NCBI GenBank assembly: GCA_902635335.1 | Contig: CACPNO010000001.1 | Coordinates: forward strand, 95,018 to 159,017 | DNA length: 64,000 nt | Source: an uncultured Pelagibacteraceae bacterium | Lineage (GTDB): Bacteria > Pseudomonadota > Alphaproteobacteria > Pelagibacterales > Pelagibacteraceae | Direction of reading: 5' to 3' | In this document: positions 27,971 through 33,354 of the stretch, piece by piece | How positions within the stretch are numbered: position 1 is the stretch's first letter | Layout: each line of letters begins with the position of its first letter | Made by a program: the position numbers and the translations under genes | Notes under the pieces: model-generated | The model's input: only the letters and a program-made list of their open reading frames with translations | Database searches by the model: none | What the model was told of the DNA's origin: nothing

Positions 27971-29080
27971 ATGAAAACTTTTTTAATAGCAAAATCAAGA
28001 AGGCTTAGAGGTACACCGTACACGTCTAGAATTGAAAAACAAGGTGTAACTGCTTATACTATATATAATCATATGTTGCTGCCAGCAGCATTCGGTTCTG
28101 TAGAAGATGCTTACCATCACTTAAAAGAGCATGTTCAGATTTGGGATGTTGCCGCTGAAAGACAAGTTGAAATTTCTGGTAAAGATTCAGCTAAATTAGT
28201 TCAATTGATGACTTGCAGAGATTTATCAAAATCCAAAGATGGAAGATGTTATTATTGCCCAATCATTGATGATAATGCAGGTTTAATTAATGATCCTGTA
28301 GTTCTAAGATTAAATGAAAATAGGTGGTGGGTTTCTTTAGCCGACTCAGATGTAATTCTATTTGCCAAAGGATTAGCGATTGGAAATAAATTTGATGTAA
28401 AAATTTCTGAACCTGATGTTGATATAATGGCAGTGCAAGGACCAAAATCATTTCAATTAATGGAAAAAGTTTTTGGAAAAAAAATTGTAGATTTAAAATT
28501 TTTTGGTTTTGATTATTTTGAATTTGGTGGAGATAAACATCTTATTGCGAAGTCTGGATGGTCTAAACAAGGTGGCTATGAAATTTATATGGAACACAAC
28601 GAGTCAGGTTTAAAACTATACGATCATCTTTTTGAAATTGGTAAGGAATTCAATATTAGACCAGGTGGACCAAACCTTATCGAACGTATTGAGAGTGGTT
28701 TACTTTCCCATGGTAATGATATGGACAATGGAGATAATCCATATGAATGTGGTTTTGATAAGTATGTAAATATAGATAGTGATGTTGATTTTTTAGGTAA
28801 AGAAAAACTGAAAAAAATTAAAGCTGAAGGAATTAAAAAAAAACTTATGGGAGTAAAAATTGATGCCAAGGAAATAAGTGTTAATGGCTCAATGGATCTA
28901 GTAGATGAAGATAATAATACAATCGGAGAATTAAGATCTGGTTGTTACAATCCGACCTTTGAGCAAGTCATTGGGATTGCAATGATTAACAAACCACACT
29001 TTGAGACTTCGAAATCCTTTAAAATCAATATAAATGGCTCTGATTTTGATGGAAAAGTTTGTGATTTACCTTTCATTTAG
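27971..29080 (+). CDS. dmdA: DMSP demethylase (GcvT fold)
   Basis: [38 protein letters not shown] and PNLIERIE closely match Pelagibacter DmdA as recalled. 369 aa. Confidence 0.95.
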
Positions 29081-29099: not shown

Positions 29100-30110
29100 A
29101 TGAATATAGCAATAGTAGGAGCGACAGGAAACGTAGGTCGAAAATTAATGGAAGTTTTGGAAAAAAAAAACTTTCCAATAACAGAGGCTTATTTAGTTGC
29201 TTCCTCAAATAGTGAAGGAAAAAAAATTAATTTTTTAGGAAAAGAGCATACTGTTAGTAATTTAGAACAATTTGATTTCTCTAAAGTAAAAATTGCTTTT
29301 TTTGCAGCTGGTTCTTCAATTGCTGAAAAATGGGCACCCATTGCAGCTGAAAAAACAATTGTAATTGATAATTCAAAATTCTTTAGAAAAGATCCAGAAA
29401 TTCCTTTAATTGTTCCAGAGGTAAATTCCAAAGAGTTACCTAAATTTAAAAATAAGAATATTGTAGCAAATGCAAATTGTTCAGTAATACCAATAGTTGT
29501 AGCTCTCAAACCATTACATGATTTGTATAATGTAAAAAGGATAGTTGCATCAACTTATCAATCTGTATCAGGAGCAGGTAAGGCAGGTATGGATGAACTT
29601 ATATCTCAAACTAAAGAAGTGTTGGAAAATAAAGATGTTGAGTCAAAAAATTTTACTAAGCAAATCGCATTTAATGCTATACCGCATATTGATAGTTTTC
29701 TTGAAAATGGAAACACAAAAGAAGAGCAAAAAAATCATGATGAGGTAAAAAAAATTTTAGATAGTAAAATTAATATAACATCTACTTGTGTAAGAATTCC
29801 TGTTCTTGTTTCTCACTCCATAAGTGTGAATGTTGAATTTAACAAAAAACATGACTTAGAAGAAATAAGAAATGTCTTATCGTCATCACCAGGATGTAAG
29901 GTAGTTGATGAACAAAAAGATGGAGGATACATTACCCCTGTTGAAGCTGAAGACAAATTTGAAACATTTATATCAAGAATTCGTGAGGATTCTTCTCAAC
30001 CAAATTCAATTAATTTGTGGGTTGTGTCTGATAACTTATTAAAAGGTGCTGCACTTAATGCAGTTGAAATTGCTGAGGCTTTAGTAGAAAAAGATTTTTA
30101 TGGAAAATAA
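29100..30110 (+). CDS. asd: Aspartate-semialdehyde dehydrogenase
   Basis: GATGNVG, ANANCS, STYQSVSGAG and DNLLKGAALN. Confidence 0.96.
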   Translation: MNIAIVGATGNVGRKLMEVLEKKNFPITEAYLVASSNSEGKKINFLGKEHTVSNLEQFDFSKVKIAFFAAGSSIAEKWAPIAAEKTIVIDNSKFFRKDPEIPLIVPEVNSKELPKFKNKNIVANANCSVIPIVVALKPLHDLYNVKRIVASTYQSVSGAGKAGMDELISQTKEVLENKDVESKNFTKQIAFNAIPHIDSFLENGNTKEEQKNHDEVKKILDSKINITSTCVRIPVLVSHSISVNVEFNKKHDLEEIRNVLSSSPGCKVVDEQKDGGYITPVEAEDKFETFISRIREDSSQPNSINLWVVSDNLLKGAALNAVEIAEALVEKDFYGK

Positions 30111-30483
30111 AAGTCCAATATCACCACATATACAAATTTATAATTGGCATATCTCTTCGTTAGTTTCAATATCACATAGAATAACTGGAATAATAAATTT
30201 TTTTACAATAACCTTAATTGGTATATGGATAGCTTCTTTAATATTGGGTGAAAAAAACTATGAGTATACCAATTTATTCTTATCATCTTTTTTTGGTAAA
30301 TTTTTTTGTCTTGGAATAATTTGGTCATTTTCATTTCAAATGCTTAGTGAAATAAGACATTTGTTTATGGATTTAGGTTATGGTTTTGAGCCAAAAATAA
30401 CAAAAATAACTGGACTAGTAGTACTAATTGGATCATTTCCACTTACTGTAATTATCTTTGTTATTGGGAGAGTTTTAATTTGA
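30100..30483 (+). CDS. sdhC: Succinate dehydrogenase membrane anchor SdhC (heme-ligand His replaced by Gln)
   Basis: PISPHIQIY, SISHRITG and IRHL..D motifs. Confidence 0.93.
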   Translation: MENKSPISPHIQIYNWHISSLVSISHRITGIINFFTITLIGIWIASLILGEKNYEYTNLFLSSFFGKFFCLGIIWSFSFQMLSEIRHLFMDLGYGFEPKITKITGLVVLIGSFPLTVIIFVIGRVLI

Positions 30484-30806
30484 TGGGATCTGTTACAAAA
30501 AAATGGTTATTTTTAAAAGTAAGTTCAGCAATACTGGTACCATTAATGCTATGGTTTGCTATAAATTTTGCCTTTATATATGACAAAGGCTTTGAAAAGG
30601 TCCTAATATTTGTTTCCTCTCAACCTTCAAAGTTATTGATTAGCCTTTTTTTGATTTTTGCTTATTTTTTCTCTGCATTAAGCATCAGTGAGGTTTTTGA
30701 AGACTATATTGAAGATGAAAAAATCAAAAATGCCGCAAATAAATCTTTAAATATCTTTGCTATAGTATTTCCATTATTAATCATTATCTTAGTATTTAGT
30801 TTATAG
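30483..30806 (+). CDS. sdhD: Succinate dehydrogenase membrane anchor SdhD (contains no histidine)
   Basis: Three TM segments, EDY quinone-site motif, position between sdhC and sdhA, TGATG coupling. Confidence 0.9.
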
Positions 30807-30808
30807 TT

Positions 30809-32584
30809 ATGAGTGCGTACAAAATTATTGATCATGAATATGATGTAGTTGTTCTAGGTGCAGGTGGTTCTGGACTAAGAGCAGCTGTAGGGTTAAGCGA
30901 GGCTGGATTAAAAACAGCATGTGTATCCAAAGTATTCCCAACAAGAAGCCATACCTCTGCAGCGCAAGGTGGGATTTCAGCAGCACTTGGCAATATGGGT
31001 GAAGACGATTGGAGATGGCATATGTATGATACCGTTAAAGGTGCTGATTGGTTAGGAGATCAAGACTCTATCGAATATTTATGCAAAGAAGCTCCTGCAG
31101 CAGTTCTAGAATTAGAGAAATATGGAGTACCATTTAGCAGAACAGAAGATGGCAAAATTTATCAAAGACCTTTTGGTGGTATGACAAAAAACTATGGAAA
31201 TGAGACCGTACAAAGAACATGTGCTGCAGCTGATAGAACAGGACATGCAATACTACATACATTGTACGGGCAAGCCTTAAAGCATAATACAGAATTTTTT
31301 ATAGAATATTTTGCATTAGATTTAATAATGAAGGATGGGGCATGTAAGGGTATAATTGCCTGGAATCTTAATGATGGAACAATTCATAGATTTAGATCTC
31401 ATATTACAATAATAGCAACAGGAGGCTATGGGAAAGTATATTACTCAGCTACCTCAGCGCATACTTGTACTGGAGATGGTAACGCTATGGCTTTAAGAGC
31501 TGGTTTGCCTTTACAAGATATGGAATTTGTACAATTCCATCCTACAGGGATATATGGTCATGGCACTTTAATTTCTGAGGGAGTTAGAGGAGAAGGTGGT
31601 TATCTGGTAAACTCTAAAGGAGAGAGATTCATGGAGCGTTATGCTCCCAATGCAAAAGATTTAGCATCTAGGGATGTTGTAAGTAGATCAATTGCAGTAG
31701 AAATTAATGAGGGCAGAGGTATTGGTAAAGAACAAGATCACGTACATCTTCATATAGATCACTTAGATCCAAAAGTAATAGATGAGAGATTGCCTGGAAT
31801 TTCAGAGGCCTCAAAATTATTTGCCAATGTAGATGTAACGAAGGAACCTATACCCGTAGTACCAACAGTACATTATAATATGGGTGGAATACCAACAAAT
31901 TACAAAGCTGAGGTTTTAACAGTAAATGGATCTGAAAAAACCGTTCCTGGATTAATGGCTATTGGAGAGGCAGCTTGTGTTTCTGTACATGGAGCAAATA
32001 GATTAGGATCAAATTCATTAATTGATTTAGTTGTTTTTGGAAGAGCAGCAGCGAAAAGAGCAGCTGAATTAGTAAAACCAGGAATGAAACATGATGAGAT
32101 TGTTAAGAGTGAAACAGACAGATGTTTAGAAAGGTTTGATTCCCTAAGAAATTCAGAAGGTTCAAATCCAACATCTGAACTAAGACTTTCTATGCAAAAA
32201 ACAATGCAATCTAAGTGTGCTGTATTTAGATCAGAAAAAACTTTAAAAGAAGGTGTAGATGAAATCAGAAAACCTTATGATGGTATGGACTCTTTATCAG
32301 TAAAAGATAAATCATTAATATTTAATACTGACTTAGTTGAAACATTAGAATTTGATAATTTAATAAGACAAGCAATCACAACAATGGACTCTGCTTATAA
32401 TAGAAAAGAAAGTAGAGGGGCCCATGCAAGAGAAGATTTTCCAAAGAGAGATGACGAAAATTTTATGCAACATACTCTTTCATGGTGCAATGGTTCAAAA
32501 ACTAAAATTAGCTATAGACCTGTCCACAGATCAACACTAACAAATGATGTACAATATTTTCCTCCACAGGAAAGAGTATATTAA
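30809..32584 (+). CDS. sdhA: Succinate dehydrogenase flavoprotein
   Basis: [22 protein letters not shown] and HGANRLG. Confidence 0.98.
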
Positions 32585-33354
32585 TGGTCCAATTTAATTT
32601 ACCAGCAAATTCAAAGGTAAAAAAAGGGCAGTACTACAAAGATAACACAGGATCAAAAAACATAAGAAAAGTTAACGTATATAGATGGGATCCATCTAAA
32701 AATGAAAATCCAAGAATTGATACTTATGAAGTTGATATGGATAACTGTTCATCAAAAGTCCTAGATATATTAAATAAAATTAAAAATGAAATAGATCCTT
32801 CGATTGCGTATAGAAGATCATGTGCGCATGGTGTTTGTGGATCATGTGCAATGAATATGAATGGAAAAAACGGTTTAGCGTGTACTAAAGCTCATTCAGA
32901 ATTGGAAGGAGATATTGATATCTACCCTTTACCTCATTTAAAAGTTTTAAAAGATTTAATTGGAGATCTAAGTACATTGTATAAACAATATGAATCAGTT
33001 GAACCTTGGTTAAAAACCACAAAAAAAAATGATAAGGAAAATATTCAATCAAAAGAAGATAGAGCAAAATTGGATGGTTTCTATGAATGCATAATGTGTG
33101 CATGTTGTTCAACGTCTTGCCCAAGTTATTGGTGGAATGGTGAAAAATATTTAGGTCCGGCTGTTTTACTTCAGGCTTATAGATGGATAATCGATAGTAG
33201 AGATGAAGATAGAAAAGAAAGACTTAAAAAAGTTGCTGACGAGCTTAAACTTTATAGATGTCATACTATCTTGAATTGTACAAATGCTTGTCCCAAGGGC
33301 TTAAATCCTGCAAAAGCTATTGCAGAGATAAAGAAAATGCTTGCAACAGCTTGA
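32584..33354 (+). CDS. sdhB: Succinate dehydrogenase iron-sulfur subunit
   Basis: [22 protein letters not shown] and [12 protein letters not shown]. Confidence 0.98.

What the first reader, a model, noticed from the sequence alone, without database searches (positions are those of the whole stretch)
30100..30806. Succinate dehydrogenase with both heme-b axial histidines replaced: a naturally heme-free complex II?
Seen: SdhC reads FQMLSEIRHL where E. coli has YHVVVGIRHM. The ligand His84 position is Gln80 (CAA, 30337-30339) and the heme-packing Gly is Glu84. SdhD reads [15 protein letters not shown] where E. coli has LIHAWIGMWQVLTDY. The ligand His71 position is Phe63 (TTC, 30669-30671), the Gly is Ser, and the whole protein contains no His. 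The quinone-site motifs (SxxHR in SdhC, DY in SdhD) and the SdhA/SdhB cofactor motifs are intact. Established: these two His ligate heme b556 in type C SQR, and heme-less E. coli mutants keep quinone reductase activity. Inference: four coordinated changes over two genes argue against sequencing error and suggest the pocket was filled by bulkier side chains, which would be an iron/heme-sparing adaptation in an oligotroph.
Basis: partly seen in the sequence, partly recalled or inferred. Interest (0 to 1): 0.78.

Follow-up and report, generated by a model that had tools for sequence, protein, structure and literature searches.

The report
SAR11 succinate dehydrogenase without heme ligands
This Pelagibacter (SAR11) genome, like its whole genus, has an intact succinate dehydrogenase whose two membrane-anchor subunits have replaced both histidines that normally hold the heme, so the ocean's most abundant heterotroph probably runs a heme-free complex II of the kind shown so far only in yeast, a few protists and engineered E. 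coli.

Summary
In the sdhCDAB operon, SdhC Gln80 (CAA) and Glu84 sit where E. coli has His84 and Gly88. SdhD Phe63 (TTC) and Ser67 sit where E. coli has His71 and Gly75, and SdhD has no His. The quinone-site, FAD and Fe-S motifs are intact.

It is not a sequencing error: the exact SdhD occurs on 43 contigs, and the signature holds in all 34 sampled Pelagibacter species, including cultured HTCC7211. Among 80 other Alphaproteobacteria, SdhC keeps the His in 78 and SdhD in 80.

Relatives show a stepwise path. A sister genus has lost only the SdhD His but already carries the Glu. The IMCC9063 group keeps both His. A second Pelagibacterales family changed only the SdhC His, to Tyr or Asn.

The Gly-to-Glu change mirrors heme-free yeast complex II. 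There, a Glu at His+4 replaces a heme propionate.

Heme absence is inferred (about 0.8), not measured. The iron-sparing motive is untested: the trait is fixed by clade and saves one Fe in ten.

I found no paper reporting this for a bacterium. Earlier runs of this scan reached the same reading on several other SAR11 genomes. Verdict: a new bacterial member of a known kind, of moderate interest.

The parts
30100..30483 (+). sdhC, large membrane-anchor subunit (127 aa); its start overlaps the end of asd by 11 nt
   Evidence: PF01127 E 5.7e-26. TIGR02970 113.9 bits against a cut-off of 52.3. phmmer to E. coli SdhC 1nek_C E 3.4e-13.
30337..30339 (+). SdhC Gln80 (CAA), at the position of the heme axial ligand His84 of E. 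coli
   Evidence: Alignments. Gln in 34/34 species of the genus; His in 78/80 other Alphaproteobacteria.
30349..30351 (+). SdhC Glu84 (GAA), at the position of the heme-packing Gly88. Proposed stand-in for a heme propionate.
   Evidence: Glu in 34/34 species of the genus and 2/2 of the sister genus; Gly in 79/80 other Alphaproteobacteria. Yeast Sdh4 Glu112 at His+4 plays this role (PMC13066397).
30166..30180 (+). SdhC Ser23-Ile-Ser-His26-Arg27, the quinone-site and propionate-side motif (E. coli S27, H30, R31), retained
30355..30360 (+). SdhC Arg86-His87 (E. coli R90-H91; H91 hydrogen-bonds the distal heme propionate in E. coli), retained
   Evidence: PMC3290573.
30483..30806 (+). sdhD, small membrane-anchor subunit (107 aa, ATG at 30483 overlapping the sdhC stop); contains no His
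   Evidence: TIGR02968 45.5 bits against a cut-off of 41.8. PF01127 26.3 bits. The exact protein is on 43 contigs. No His.
30669..30671 (+). SdhD Phe63 (TTC), at the position of the heme axial ligand His71 of E. coli
   Evidence: Phe 30, Tyr 3, His 1 among 34 species of the genus; His in 80/80 other Alphaproteobacteria.
30681..30683 (+). SdhD Ser67 (AGC), at the position of the heme-packing Gly75
   Evidence: Ser/Thr/Asn in 34/34 species of the genus; Gly in 79/80 other Alphaproteobacteria.
30513..30518 (+). SdhD Leu11-Lys12, where heme-type Alphaproteobacteria have Gln-Arg. The Arg equals E. coli SdhD R20, a partner of the distal propionate.
   Evidence: Gln in 74/80 and Arg in 73/80 other Alphaproteobacteria; Leu/Met and Lys/Arg in the genus. 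PMC3290573.
30702..30707 (+). SdhD Asp74-Tyr75 (E. coli D82-Y83), quinone-site residues, retained
30809..32584 (+). sdhA flavoprotein (591 aa) with the covalent-FAD His48 in HTSAAQGG; the Gln is of the SQR type
   Evidence: PF00890 E 5e-127 and PF02910 E 2.9e-45; motif.
32584..33354 (+). sdhB iron-sulfur protein (256 aa) with all three cluster motifs
   Evidence: PF13085 E 1.6e-34. Motifs C-x4-C-x2-C-x11-C at residue 80, C-x2-C-x2-C-x3-CP at 169 and C-x5-C-x3-CP at 226.

Best explanation
The window carries the single sdhCDAB operon of a Candidatus Pelagibacter (SAR11) genome. It encodes a working succinate:ubiquinone oxidoreductase that descends from the one-heme 'type C' enzymes but no longer binds heme b. 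Electrons would run FAD, then 2Fe-2S, 4Fe-4S and 3Fe-4S, to ubiquinone at the retained proximal quinone site (SdhB, SdhC Ser23/Arg27, SdhD Asp74/Tyr75). In heme-containing enzymes the heme lies off this path. The four-helix bundle that normally encloses the heme is held together by side chains instead. Gln80 (SdhC) and Phe63 (SdhD) take the place of the two axial His. Ser67 replaces the SdhD glycine that packs on the porphyrin. The carboxylate of SdhC Glu84 replaces a heme propionate, probably pairing with SdhD Lys12 and/or SdhC His87. Shown here: the substitutions, their conservation, their order of appearance, and the intact remainder of the enzyme. Inferred: the absence of heme, the contacts of Glu84, and catalytic competence.
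For: 1. Both axial ligands and both heme-packing glycines are replaced. These positions are nearly invariant in 80 other Alphaproteobacteria: 78, 79, 80 and 79 of 80.
2. No lineage-specific substitute ligand exists. SdhD has no His (101 of 120 close homologues have none). The four His of SdhC are the same ones that heme-type relatives have.
3. The variant is under selection. Gln/Glu holds in 34/34 species of the genus, which span 58-100% SdhC identity to the window protein. At about 91-93% SdhA identity, SdhD is 61-63% identical between this genus and its sister, against 37-43% between heme-type genera.
4. The rest of the enzyme is intact. No second anchor gene was found in the genome, which is 64% complete.
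5. There is a proven parallel. Yeast complex II has Tyr in place of the Sdh4 His and Glu112 in place of the Gly at His+4. That Glu salt-bridges the quinone-site Arg in place of a propionate, and cryo-EM and spectra show no heme (PMC13066397, PMC12508127).
6. A heme-free E. coli variant keeps about half its activity and supports growth on succinate (PMC3290573).
7. The order of events is stepwise on the SdhA tree. The sister genus g5 has SdhD Phe and SdhC Glu but still has the SdhC His. The window's genus, nested inside, then changed that His to Gln. This is what one expects if the His became useless once heme was lost.
8. An acidic residue at SdhC His+4 also appears in two further lineages that lost the SdhC His: g9 (Asn/Asp) and G415 (Tyr/Glu).
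Against: No heme measurement exists for any SAR11 enzyme, and none can be made with these tools. Single axial-ligand mutants of E. coli SQR are reported to retain heme (title of Maklashina et al. 2001, cited in PMC13066397), so ligand loss alone does not prove heme loss. Five-coordinate or non-His ligation cannot be excluded from sequence. The Glu84 contacts rest on pseudo-symmetry with yeast and E. coli, not on a model. The link between His loss and Gly replacement rests on only 3-4 independent contrasts (sign test p 0.25 or more). Public annotation still calls SdhC a 'cytochrome b556 subunit', though that is by homology only.
Confidence: 0.8

Rival explanations
1. Heme b is still bound, through unconventional ligation: five-coordinate, or ligated by another SdhC residue such as His87 or His26, a Met or a Tyr. 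The enzyme would then remain a cytochrome-containing type C SQR.
For: Single-ligand E. coli mutants are reported to retain heme (reference title cited in PMC13066397). SdhC His26 and His87 lie close to the heme edge and propionate in E. coli (PMC3290573) and are retained here.
Against: Both ligands are gone, not one. Both glycines that make room for the porphyrin are replaced, one of them by a charged Glu inside the bundle. His26 and His87 are equally present in heme-type relatives, where they are not ligands. SdhD offers no His, and its position 63 varies among Phe, Tyr and His in the genus, which is not how a ligand behaves. In yeast a single His-to-Tyr change plus a Glu suffices to exclude heme.
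Confidence: 0.12
2. On the cause of the loss: it is an adaptive iron- or heme-sparing trait of an open-ocean oligotroph.
For: The lineages that lost ligands are marine Pelagibacterales. The group that holds IMCC9063 keeps both His. Losses arose at least twice within the order.
Against: The saving is 1 of 10 Fe atoms per enzyme (9 in Fe-S clusters plus 1 heme; established stoichiometry). The trait is fixed across the genus in all 34 sampled species rather than varying with habitat. Ferrochelatase and cytochrome b are retained. There are only about four independent events, too few for any test. A marine genus of the second family (g7) keeps both His.
Confidence: 0.3
3. On the cause of the loss: it is a neutral loss of a dispensable cofactor, driven by AT-biased mutation in a streamlined genome and then locked in by compensating packing substitutions.
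For: Heme is off the electron path and dispensable in E. coli and yeast. The changes are consistent with GC-to-AT steps in a window of 31% GC: Gly GGN to Glu GAA, and His CAY to Tyr TAY to Phe TTY. His CAY to Gln CAA is also in that direction if the ancestral codon was CAC. The stepwise order has an intermediate genus. After the loss SdhD became more, not less, conserved, as expected if protein-protein packing replaced heme-mediated packing.
Against: The loss recurs in Pelagibacterales (at least twice) against 2 of 80 single-His cases elsewhere. That hints at a lineage-specific pressure or permissiveness. Neutrality cannot be shown from sequence.
Confidence: 0.45
4. It is an artefact: a sequencing or assembly error, or a decaying pseudogene in an incomplete metagenome-assembled genome.
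For: The genome is only 64% complete, in 36 contigs.
Against: The frames are open and translationally coupled. The exact SdhD is on 43 contigs and the SdhC cluster has 53 members. Thousands of metagenomic homologues exist, and 118 of 120 close SdhC and all 120 close SdhD sequences keep the ligand substitutions. The same state occurs in closed genomes and cultured strains.
Confidence: 0.01

Closest known systems
Saccharomyces cerevisiae mitochondrial complex II (Sdh1-4), heme-free by cryo-EM and spectroscopy (PMC13066397, PMC12508127; PDB 9KPS/9KQ3 appear as weak SdhC matches)
   Same: It descends from the type C SdhC/SdhD anchors and keeps the proximal quinone site. An axial His is replaced by an aromatic residue, and the Gly at His+4 is replaced by a Glu that stands in for a heme propionate. 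Electron transfer runs by FAD and three Fe-S clusters only.
   Different: Yeast lost only the Sdh4 (SdhD) His, to Tyr, which hydrogen-bonds the retained Sdh3 His. Its Glu is in Sdh4. Here both His are gone (Gln and Phe) and the Glu is in SdhC, the pseudo-symmetric partner. The SAR11 enzyme is bacterial, and its heme content is unmeasured.
E. coli SdhCDAB (type C SQR, PDB 1NEK) and its engineered heme-free variant (Tran et al. 2007, as cited in PMC3290573)
   Same: Same operon order, same two three-helix anchors and the same quinone-site residues (S27/R31, D82/Y83). The engineered variant shows that a heme-free enzyme assembles and works at about half rate.
   Different: Wild-type E. coli binds heme b556 through SdhC His84 and SdhD His71. 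The SAR11 proteins have Gln and Phe there by nature, plus compensating changes at Gly88, Gly75 and the SdhD Gln-Arg motif.
E. coli fumarate reductase FrdABCD (classical type D: two anchors, no heme)
   Same: Two hydrophobic anchor subunits and no heme.
   Different: It is a different anchor lineage. SdhC gives only a sub-threshold match to PF02313 (19.4 bits against a cut-off of 25). FrdABCD is a menaquinol:fumarate reductase of anaerobic respiration. SAR11 SdhA has the SQR-type Gln in the AQGG motif (the SQR/QFR meaning of that residue is from my own knowledge).
Divergent heme-less complex II of Tetrahymena thermophila and Perkinsus marinus (cited in PMC13066397)
   Same: There is no heme in the membrane domain.
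   Different: These are highly divergent, many-subunit mitochondrial enzymes inside supercomplexes. The SAR11 enzyme is a plain four-subunit bacterial one.

Membership tests
Type C succinate:quinone oxidoreductase (SdhCDAB, two anchors, one heme b) | Four-gene sdhCDAB operon with two small three-helix anchors of the Sdh_cyt family | tested here: met
   Gene order. PF01127 for both anchors. TIGR02970 and TIGR02968 both above cut-off.
Type C succinate:quinone oxidoreductase (SdhCDAB, two anchors, one heme b) | Flavoprotein with the covalent-FAD His, and iron-sulfur protein with ligands for 2Fe-2S, 4Fe-4S and 3Fe-4S | tested here: met
   Motifs found at SdhA residue 48 and SdhB residues 80, 169 and 226; Pfam domains.
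Type C succinate:quinone oxidoreductase (SdhCDAB, two anchors, one heme b) | Proximal quinone-site residues (E. coli SdhC Ser27/Arg31, SdhD Asp82/Tyr83) | tested here: met
   SdhC Ser23/Arg27 and SdhD Asp74/Tyr75.
Type C succinate:quinone oxidoreductase (SdhCDAB, two anchors, one heme b) | One axial His from each anchor ligating heme b (E. coli SdhC His84, SdhD His71) | tested here: not met
   Gln80 and Phe63 occupy these positions. By descent the enzyme is type C; by this cofactor criterion it is not.
Type C succinate:quinone oxidoreductase (SdhCDAB, two anchors, one heme b) | Stoichiometric heme b in the isolated enzyme | not testable with these tools
   Needs spectroscopy or a structure.
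Heme-free complex II derived from type C anchors (yeast-like; 'type D' by cofactor content) | At least one axial His replaced by a residue that cannot ligate heme or that blocks the site | tested here: met
   Both are replaced.
Heme-free complex II derived from type C anchors (yeast-like; 'type D' by cofactor content) | Gly at His+4 replaced by an acidic residue that can take over a propionate's salt bridge (yeast Sdh4 Glu112) | tested here: met
   SdhC Glu84 is at His+4, but in the other subunit than in yeast. Its contacts are inferred, not modelled.
Heme-free complex II derived from type C anchors (yeast-like; 'type D' by cofactor content) | Absence of heme shown by spectra or density | not testable with these tools
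   No experimental data were found for SAR11.
Classical type D quinol:fumarate reductase anchors (FrdC/FrdD) | Membership of the FrdC/FrdD families by sequence | tested here: not met
   There is only a sub-threshold PF02313 match for SdhC (19.4 bits against 25). The best matches are the SdhC and SdhD models.

The most novel reading that the evidence does not exclude
Heme b was shed from complex II several times independently within Alphaproteobacteria: at least twice in Pelagibacterales and in two further small-genome lineages in my sample. Each time it followed a reproducible route: block one axial position with Tyr, Phe, Gln or Asn, then put a carboxylate at His+4 to replace a propionate. 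This is the route that yeast mitochondria also took. The neighbouring Pelagibacterales genera preserve every step (His/His, one His lost, both lost). That makes a natural series with which the long-open question of what the complex II heme is for (stability, ROS control, electron buffering) could be tested directly, in the most abundant aerobic heterotroph in the sea.
Probability: 0.55. Interest if true: 0.72.

Novelty: new member of a known kind. Interest (0 to 1): 0.58.

Why it matters
The function of the heme b in complex II has been argued over for decades. It is conserved from E. coli to humans, yet it lies off the electron path. Engineered E. coli and, since 2025-26, yeast structures show that the enzyme can do without it.

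If SAR11 lacks it too, then a large share of marine aerobic succinate oxidation runs through a heme-free enzyme. The public annotation 'cytochrome b556 subunit' would be wrong for thousands of sequences. Iron-quota estimates for SAR11 respiration would drop slightly.

More usefully, sister lineages with two, one or no axial His, several of them cultured, would give a natural comparison set. With it one could test the roles proposed for the heme in stability and ROS control.

Tried and rejected
1. Sequencing error or pseudogene: rejected.
2. A second, heme-type anchor elsewhere in the genome: not found with PF01127 in G000, which is 64% complete. Two weak extra hits in complete congeners are full of stop codons.
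3. General loss of heme metabolism: rejected. Ferrochelatase and cytochrome b are present in G000 and in four congeners.
4. Relaxed selection on the anchors: not supported. SdhD is more conserved in the heme-ligand-free clade than between heme-type genera at equal SdhA divergence.
5. Strict co-occurrence of the two His losses: rejected. Genus g5 lost only the SdhD His. Genera g6, g8 and g9, and genomes G304 and G415, lost only the SdhC His. G149 has SdhC Gln with SdhD His.
6. A statistical test that Gly replacement follows His loss: only 3-4 independent contrasts, p 0.25 or more, so it is only suggestive.
7. Literature: four searches found no report of a natural heme-free type C SQR in SAR11 or any other bacterium. 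Tran 2007 and Maklashina 2010 are not held, so I cite them only through PMC3290573 and PMC13066397.
9. Structure and complex prediction were not run. The tools return scores, not coordinates, so they could show neither heme occupancy nor the Glu84 contacts, and SdhC-SdhD binding is not in question.
10. Genome G182 (unpublished) was among the 301 genomes tallied.
Full report
**What is there.** The window (31% GC) carries dmdA, asd and sdhC-sdhD-sdhA-sdhB, followed by a methylmalonate-semialdehyde dehydrogenase gene.
- sdhC (30100-30483, 127 aa) matches PF01127 (E 5.7e-26) and TIGR02970 well above cut-off.
- sdhD (30483-30806, 107 aa) matches TIGR02968 just above cut-off. Its ATG overlaps the sdhC stop as TGATG, and database homologues are 107 aa, so the ATG rather than the TTG at 30480 is the start.
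- The genome is a 0.81 Mb assembly, 64% complete, of the genus that holds Candidatus Pelagibacter sp. HTCC7211, Ca. P. communis, RS39 and RS40.

- phmmer against E. coli SdhC (1nek_C) aligns FQMLSEIRHL with YHVVVGIRHM. Gln80 (CAA, 30337-30339) lies under His84 and Glu84 (GAA) under Gly88.
- I aligned SdhD with E. coli sdhD taken from NC_000913 and with 130 relatives. Phe63 (TTC, 30669-30671) lies under His71 and Ser67 under Gly75.
- SdhD has no His.
- The quinone-site residues are kept: SdhC Ser23/Arg27 and SdhD Asp74/Tyr75. So are SdhC His26 and His87, the SdhA FAD motif and all three SdhB cluster motifs.

**It is neither an error nor chance.**
- The exact SdhD is on 43 contigs, and the SdhC cluster has 53 members.
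- Among 120 close homologues of each protein, 118 SdhC match the Q-x3-E-x-RH motif and all 120 SdhD have Phe at the His71 position.
- In 34 species of the genus, SdhC is Gln/Glu in all. SdhD position 63 is Phe in 30, Tyr in 3 and His in 1, and the Gly position is Ser, Thr or Asn in all.
- In 80 other Alphaproteobacteria from 80 loci, the SdhC His is kept in 78, its Gly in 79, the SdhD His in 80 and its Gly in 79.
- Among 97 informative 50%-identity cluster representatives nearest the query, 30 are Gln/Glu, 10 are His/Glu and 52 are His/Gly. The remaining 5 show other combinations.

**The history can be read from relatives.** I sampled 150 genomes of the order, fetched loci from every genus and built an SdhA tree.
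- The family of the window splits into two clades. One keeps both His (genera g2, g3, g4); g4's SdhC clusters at 90% identity with that of IMCC9063.
- The other clade (support 98) has the two g5 genomes branching first, with the window's genus nested inside.
- g5 has SdhD Phe and SdhC Glu but still has the SdhC His (FHILNEIRHL).
- So the SdhD His, the SdhD Gly and the SdhC Gly went first. The now ligand-less partner His changed to Gln later.
- Within the genus, SdhD position 63 wanders among Phe, Tyr and His. That is how a filler behaves, not a ligand.
- In the second family of the order, g7 keeps both His. Genera g6 and g8 have SdhC Tyr and g9 has SdhC Asn, with the Gly replaced by Cys, Ser or Asp. 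All of them keep the SdhD His.
- Two unrelated small genomes also changed only the SdhC His: G304 to Gln, and G415 to Tyr with Gly to Glu.
- On a 128-locus tree, loss of at least one His needs four origins. This is too few for statistics (p 0.25 or more). The Gly was replaced in 42 of the 43 ligand-lacking loci and in none of the 85 that keep both His. The exception is G304.

**Mechanism.** In E. coli the heme propionates are held by SdhC His91, SdhB His207 and SdhD Arg20 (distal) and by SdhC Arg31 and SdhD Gln78 (proximal). SdhD Arg20 and SdhC Arg31 are pseudo-symmetric (PMC3290573).

Yeast complex II is now shown to be heme-free. Tyr108 of Sdh4 replaces the His and hydrogen-bonds the retained Sdh3 His. 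Glu112 of Sdh4 replaces the Gly at His+4 and salt-bridges the quinone-site Arg in place of a propionate. Extra hydrophobic contacts and a lipid fill the rest (PMC13066397, PMC12508127).

SAR11 has the mirror image. Its Glu at His+4 is in SdhC. By symmetry it should face SdhD Lys12 (the Arg20 position) and SdhC His87. The conserved Gln-Arg of SdhD has become Leu/Met-Lys/Arg. These contacts are inference.

Heme is dispensable in principle. A heme-free E. coli variant keeps roughly half its activity and supports growth on succinate (PMC3290573).

The anchors are not decaying. At about 91-93% SdhA identity, SdhD is 61-63% identical between the window's genus and g5, against 37-43% between heme-type genera. 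That fits side-chain packing having replaced packing on a porphyrin.

**Why it happened is open.**
- The cells still make heme (ferrochelatase) and use cytochrome b. Only this enzyme changed.
- The saving is one Fe in ten.
- The trait is fixed across the genus in all 34 sampled species, including several named strains. It therefore does not track iron regime within the genus.
- The substitutions are consistent with GC-to-AT steps.
- I rate a compensated neutral loss at 0.45 and an iron- or heme-sparing adaptation at 0.3. The two could combine.

**Comparison and novelty.** By descent and by every tested feature except the ligands, this is a type C SQR. By cofactor it would fall with the heme-free enzymes. 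It is not related to the classical type D FrdCD anchors.

Four literature searches found no report of a natural heme-free type C enzyme in SAR11 or any other bacterium. That is absence in a partial library only.

Earlier notes of this scan reached the same reading on several other SAR11 genomes, and on a Brevundimonas genome. I had already reached the yeast comparison from the papers. I re-derived the rest independently.

**Limits.**
- Heme absence is not measured.
- Coordinate-level models were not available.
The clade names rest on protein-cluster annotations and, for the subclade labels, on my own knowledge.

Noticed in passing
window 27971-29080 (+): Two genes upstream of sdhC, just before asd, lies a 369-aa dimethylsulfoniopropionate demethylase (DmdA). 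It matches NCBIfam equivalog NF009133 at 571 bits against a cut-off of 410. The local gene order is therefore dmdA-asd-sdhCDAB-mmsA.
   Followed up: partly
window 30100-30110, 30481-30485, 32584: The genes are tightly coupled. asd overlaps sdhC by 11 nt. The sdhC stop and sdhD start share TGATG. The sdhA stop and sdhB start share one base (TAATG).
   Followed up: yes
L130 (G415:C15:26664-29414): An unrelated alphaproteobacterium of 1.8 Mb has SdhC FYFLAEVRYL. The axial His is Tyr, the Gly is Glu and the propionate-side His (E. coli H91) is Tyr. SdhD keeps its His. This is another candidate heme-free lineage.
   Followed up: partly
L064 (G304:C21:6888-9623): A 1.3 Mb alphaproteobacterium has SdhC Gln at the axial His position, but the Gly and the SdhD His are intact. 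This may be an early step of the same path, or a heme with one protein ligand.
   Followed up: no
L132 (G336:C3:49640-52384): Its SdhC keeps the axial His but has Asn for E. coli His30 and Phe for His91 (SFLNRITG, RFL). The propionate-side residues have changed while the ligands are intact.
   Followed up: no
L035 (G149:C8:9448-12228): One species of the window's genus has His at the SdhD ligand position (FFHSALTISEIFEDY) beside SdhC Gln/Glu and no SdhD Gly. This is probably a Tyr-to-His change at a position that is no longer a ligand.
   Followed up: partly
protein clusters (cluster 6; cluster 9): Two 90%-identity clusters mix SdhC proteins of 123-127 aa with proteins of 330-337 aa; those in cluster 6 are named aspartate-semialdehyde dehydrogenase, those in cluster 9 carry no name. 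This is presumably a clustering artefact of the overlapping asd/sdhC genes or of fused gene calls.
   Followed up: no
P0563, P0585, P0616: Some cluster representatives carry the genus-like motif but with His at the SdhC ligand position (SFSFHILSEIRHLIM). The His/Glu intermediate state is therefore commoner in metagenomes than the two g5 genomes suggest.
   Followed up: no
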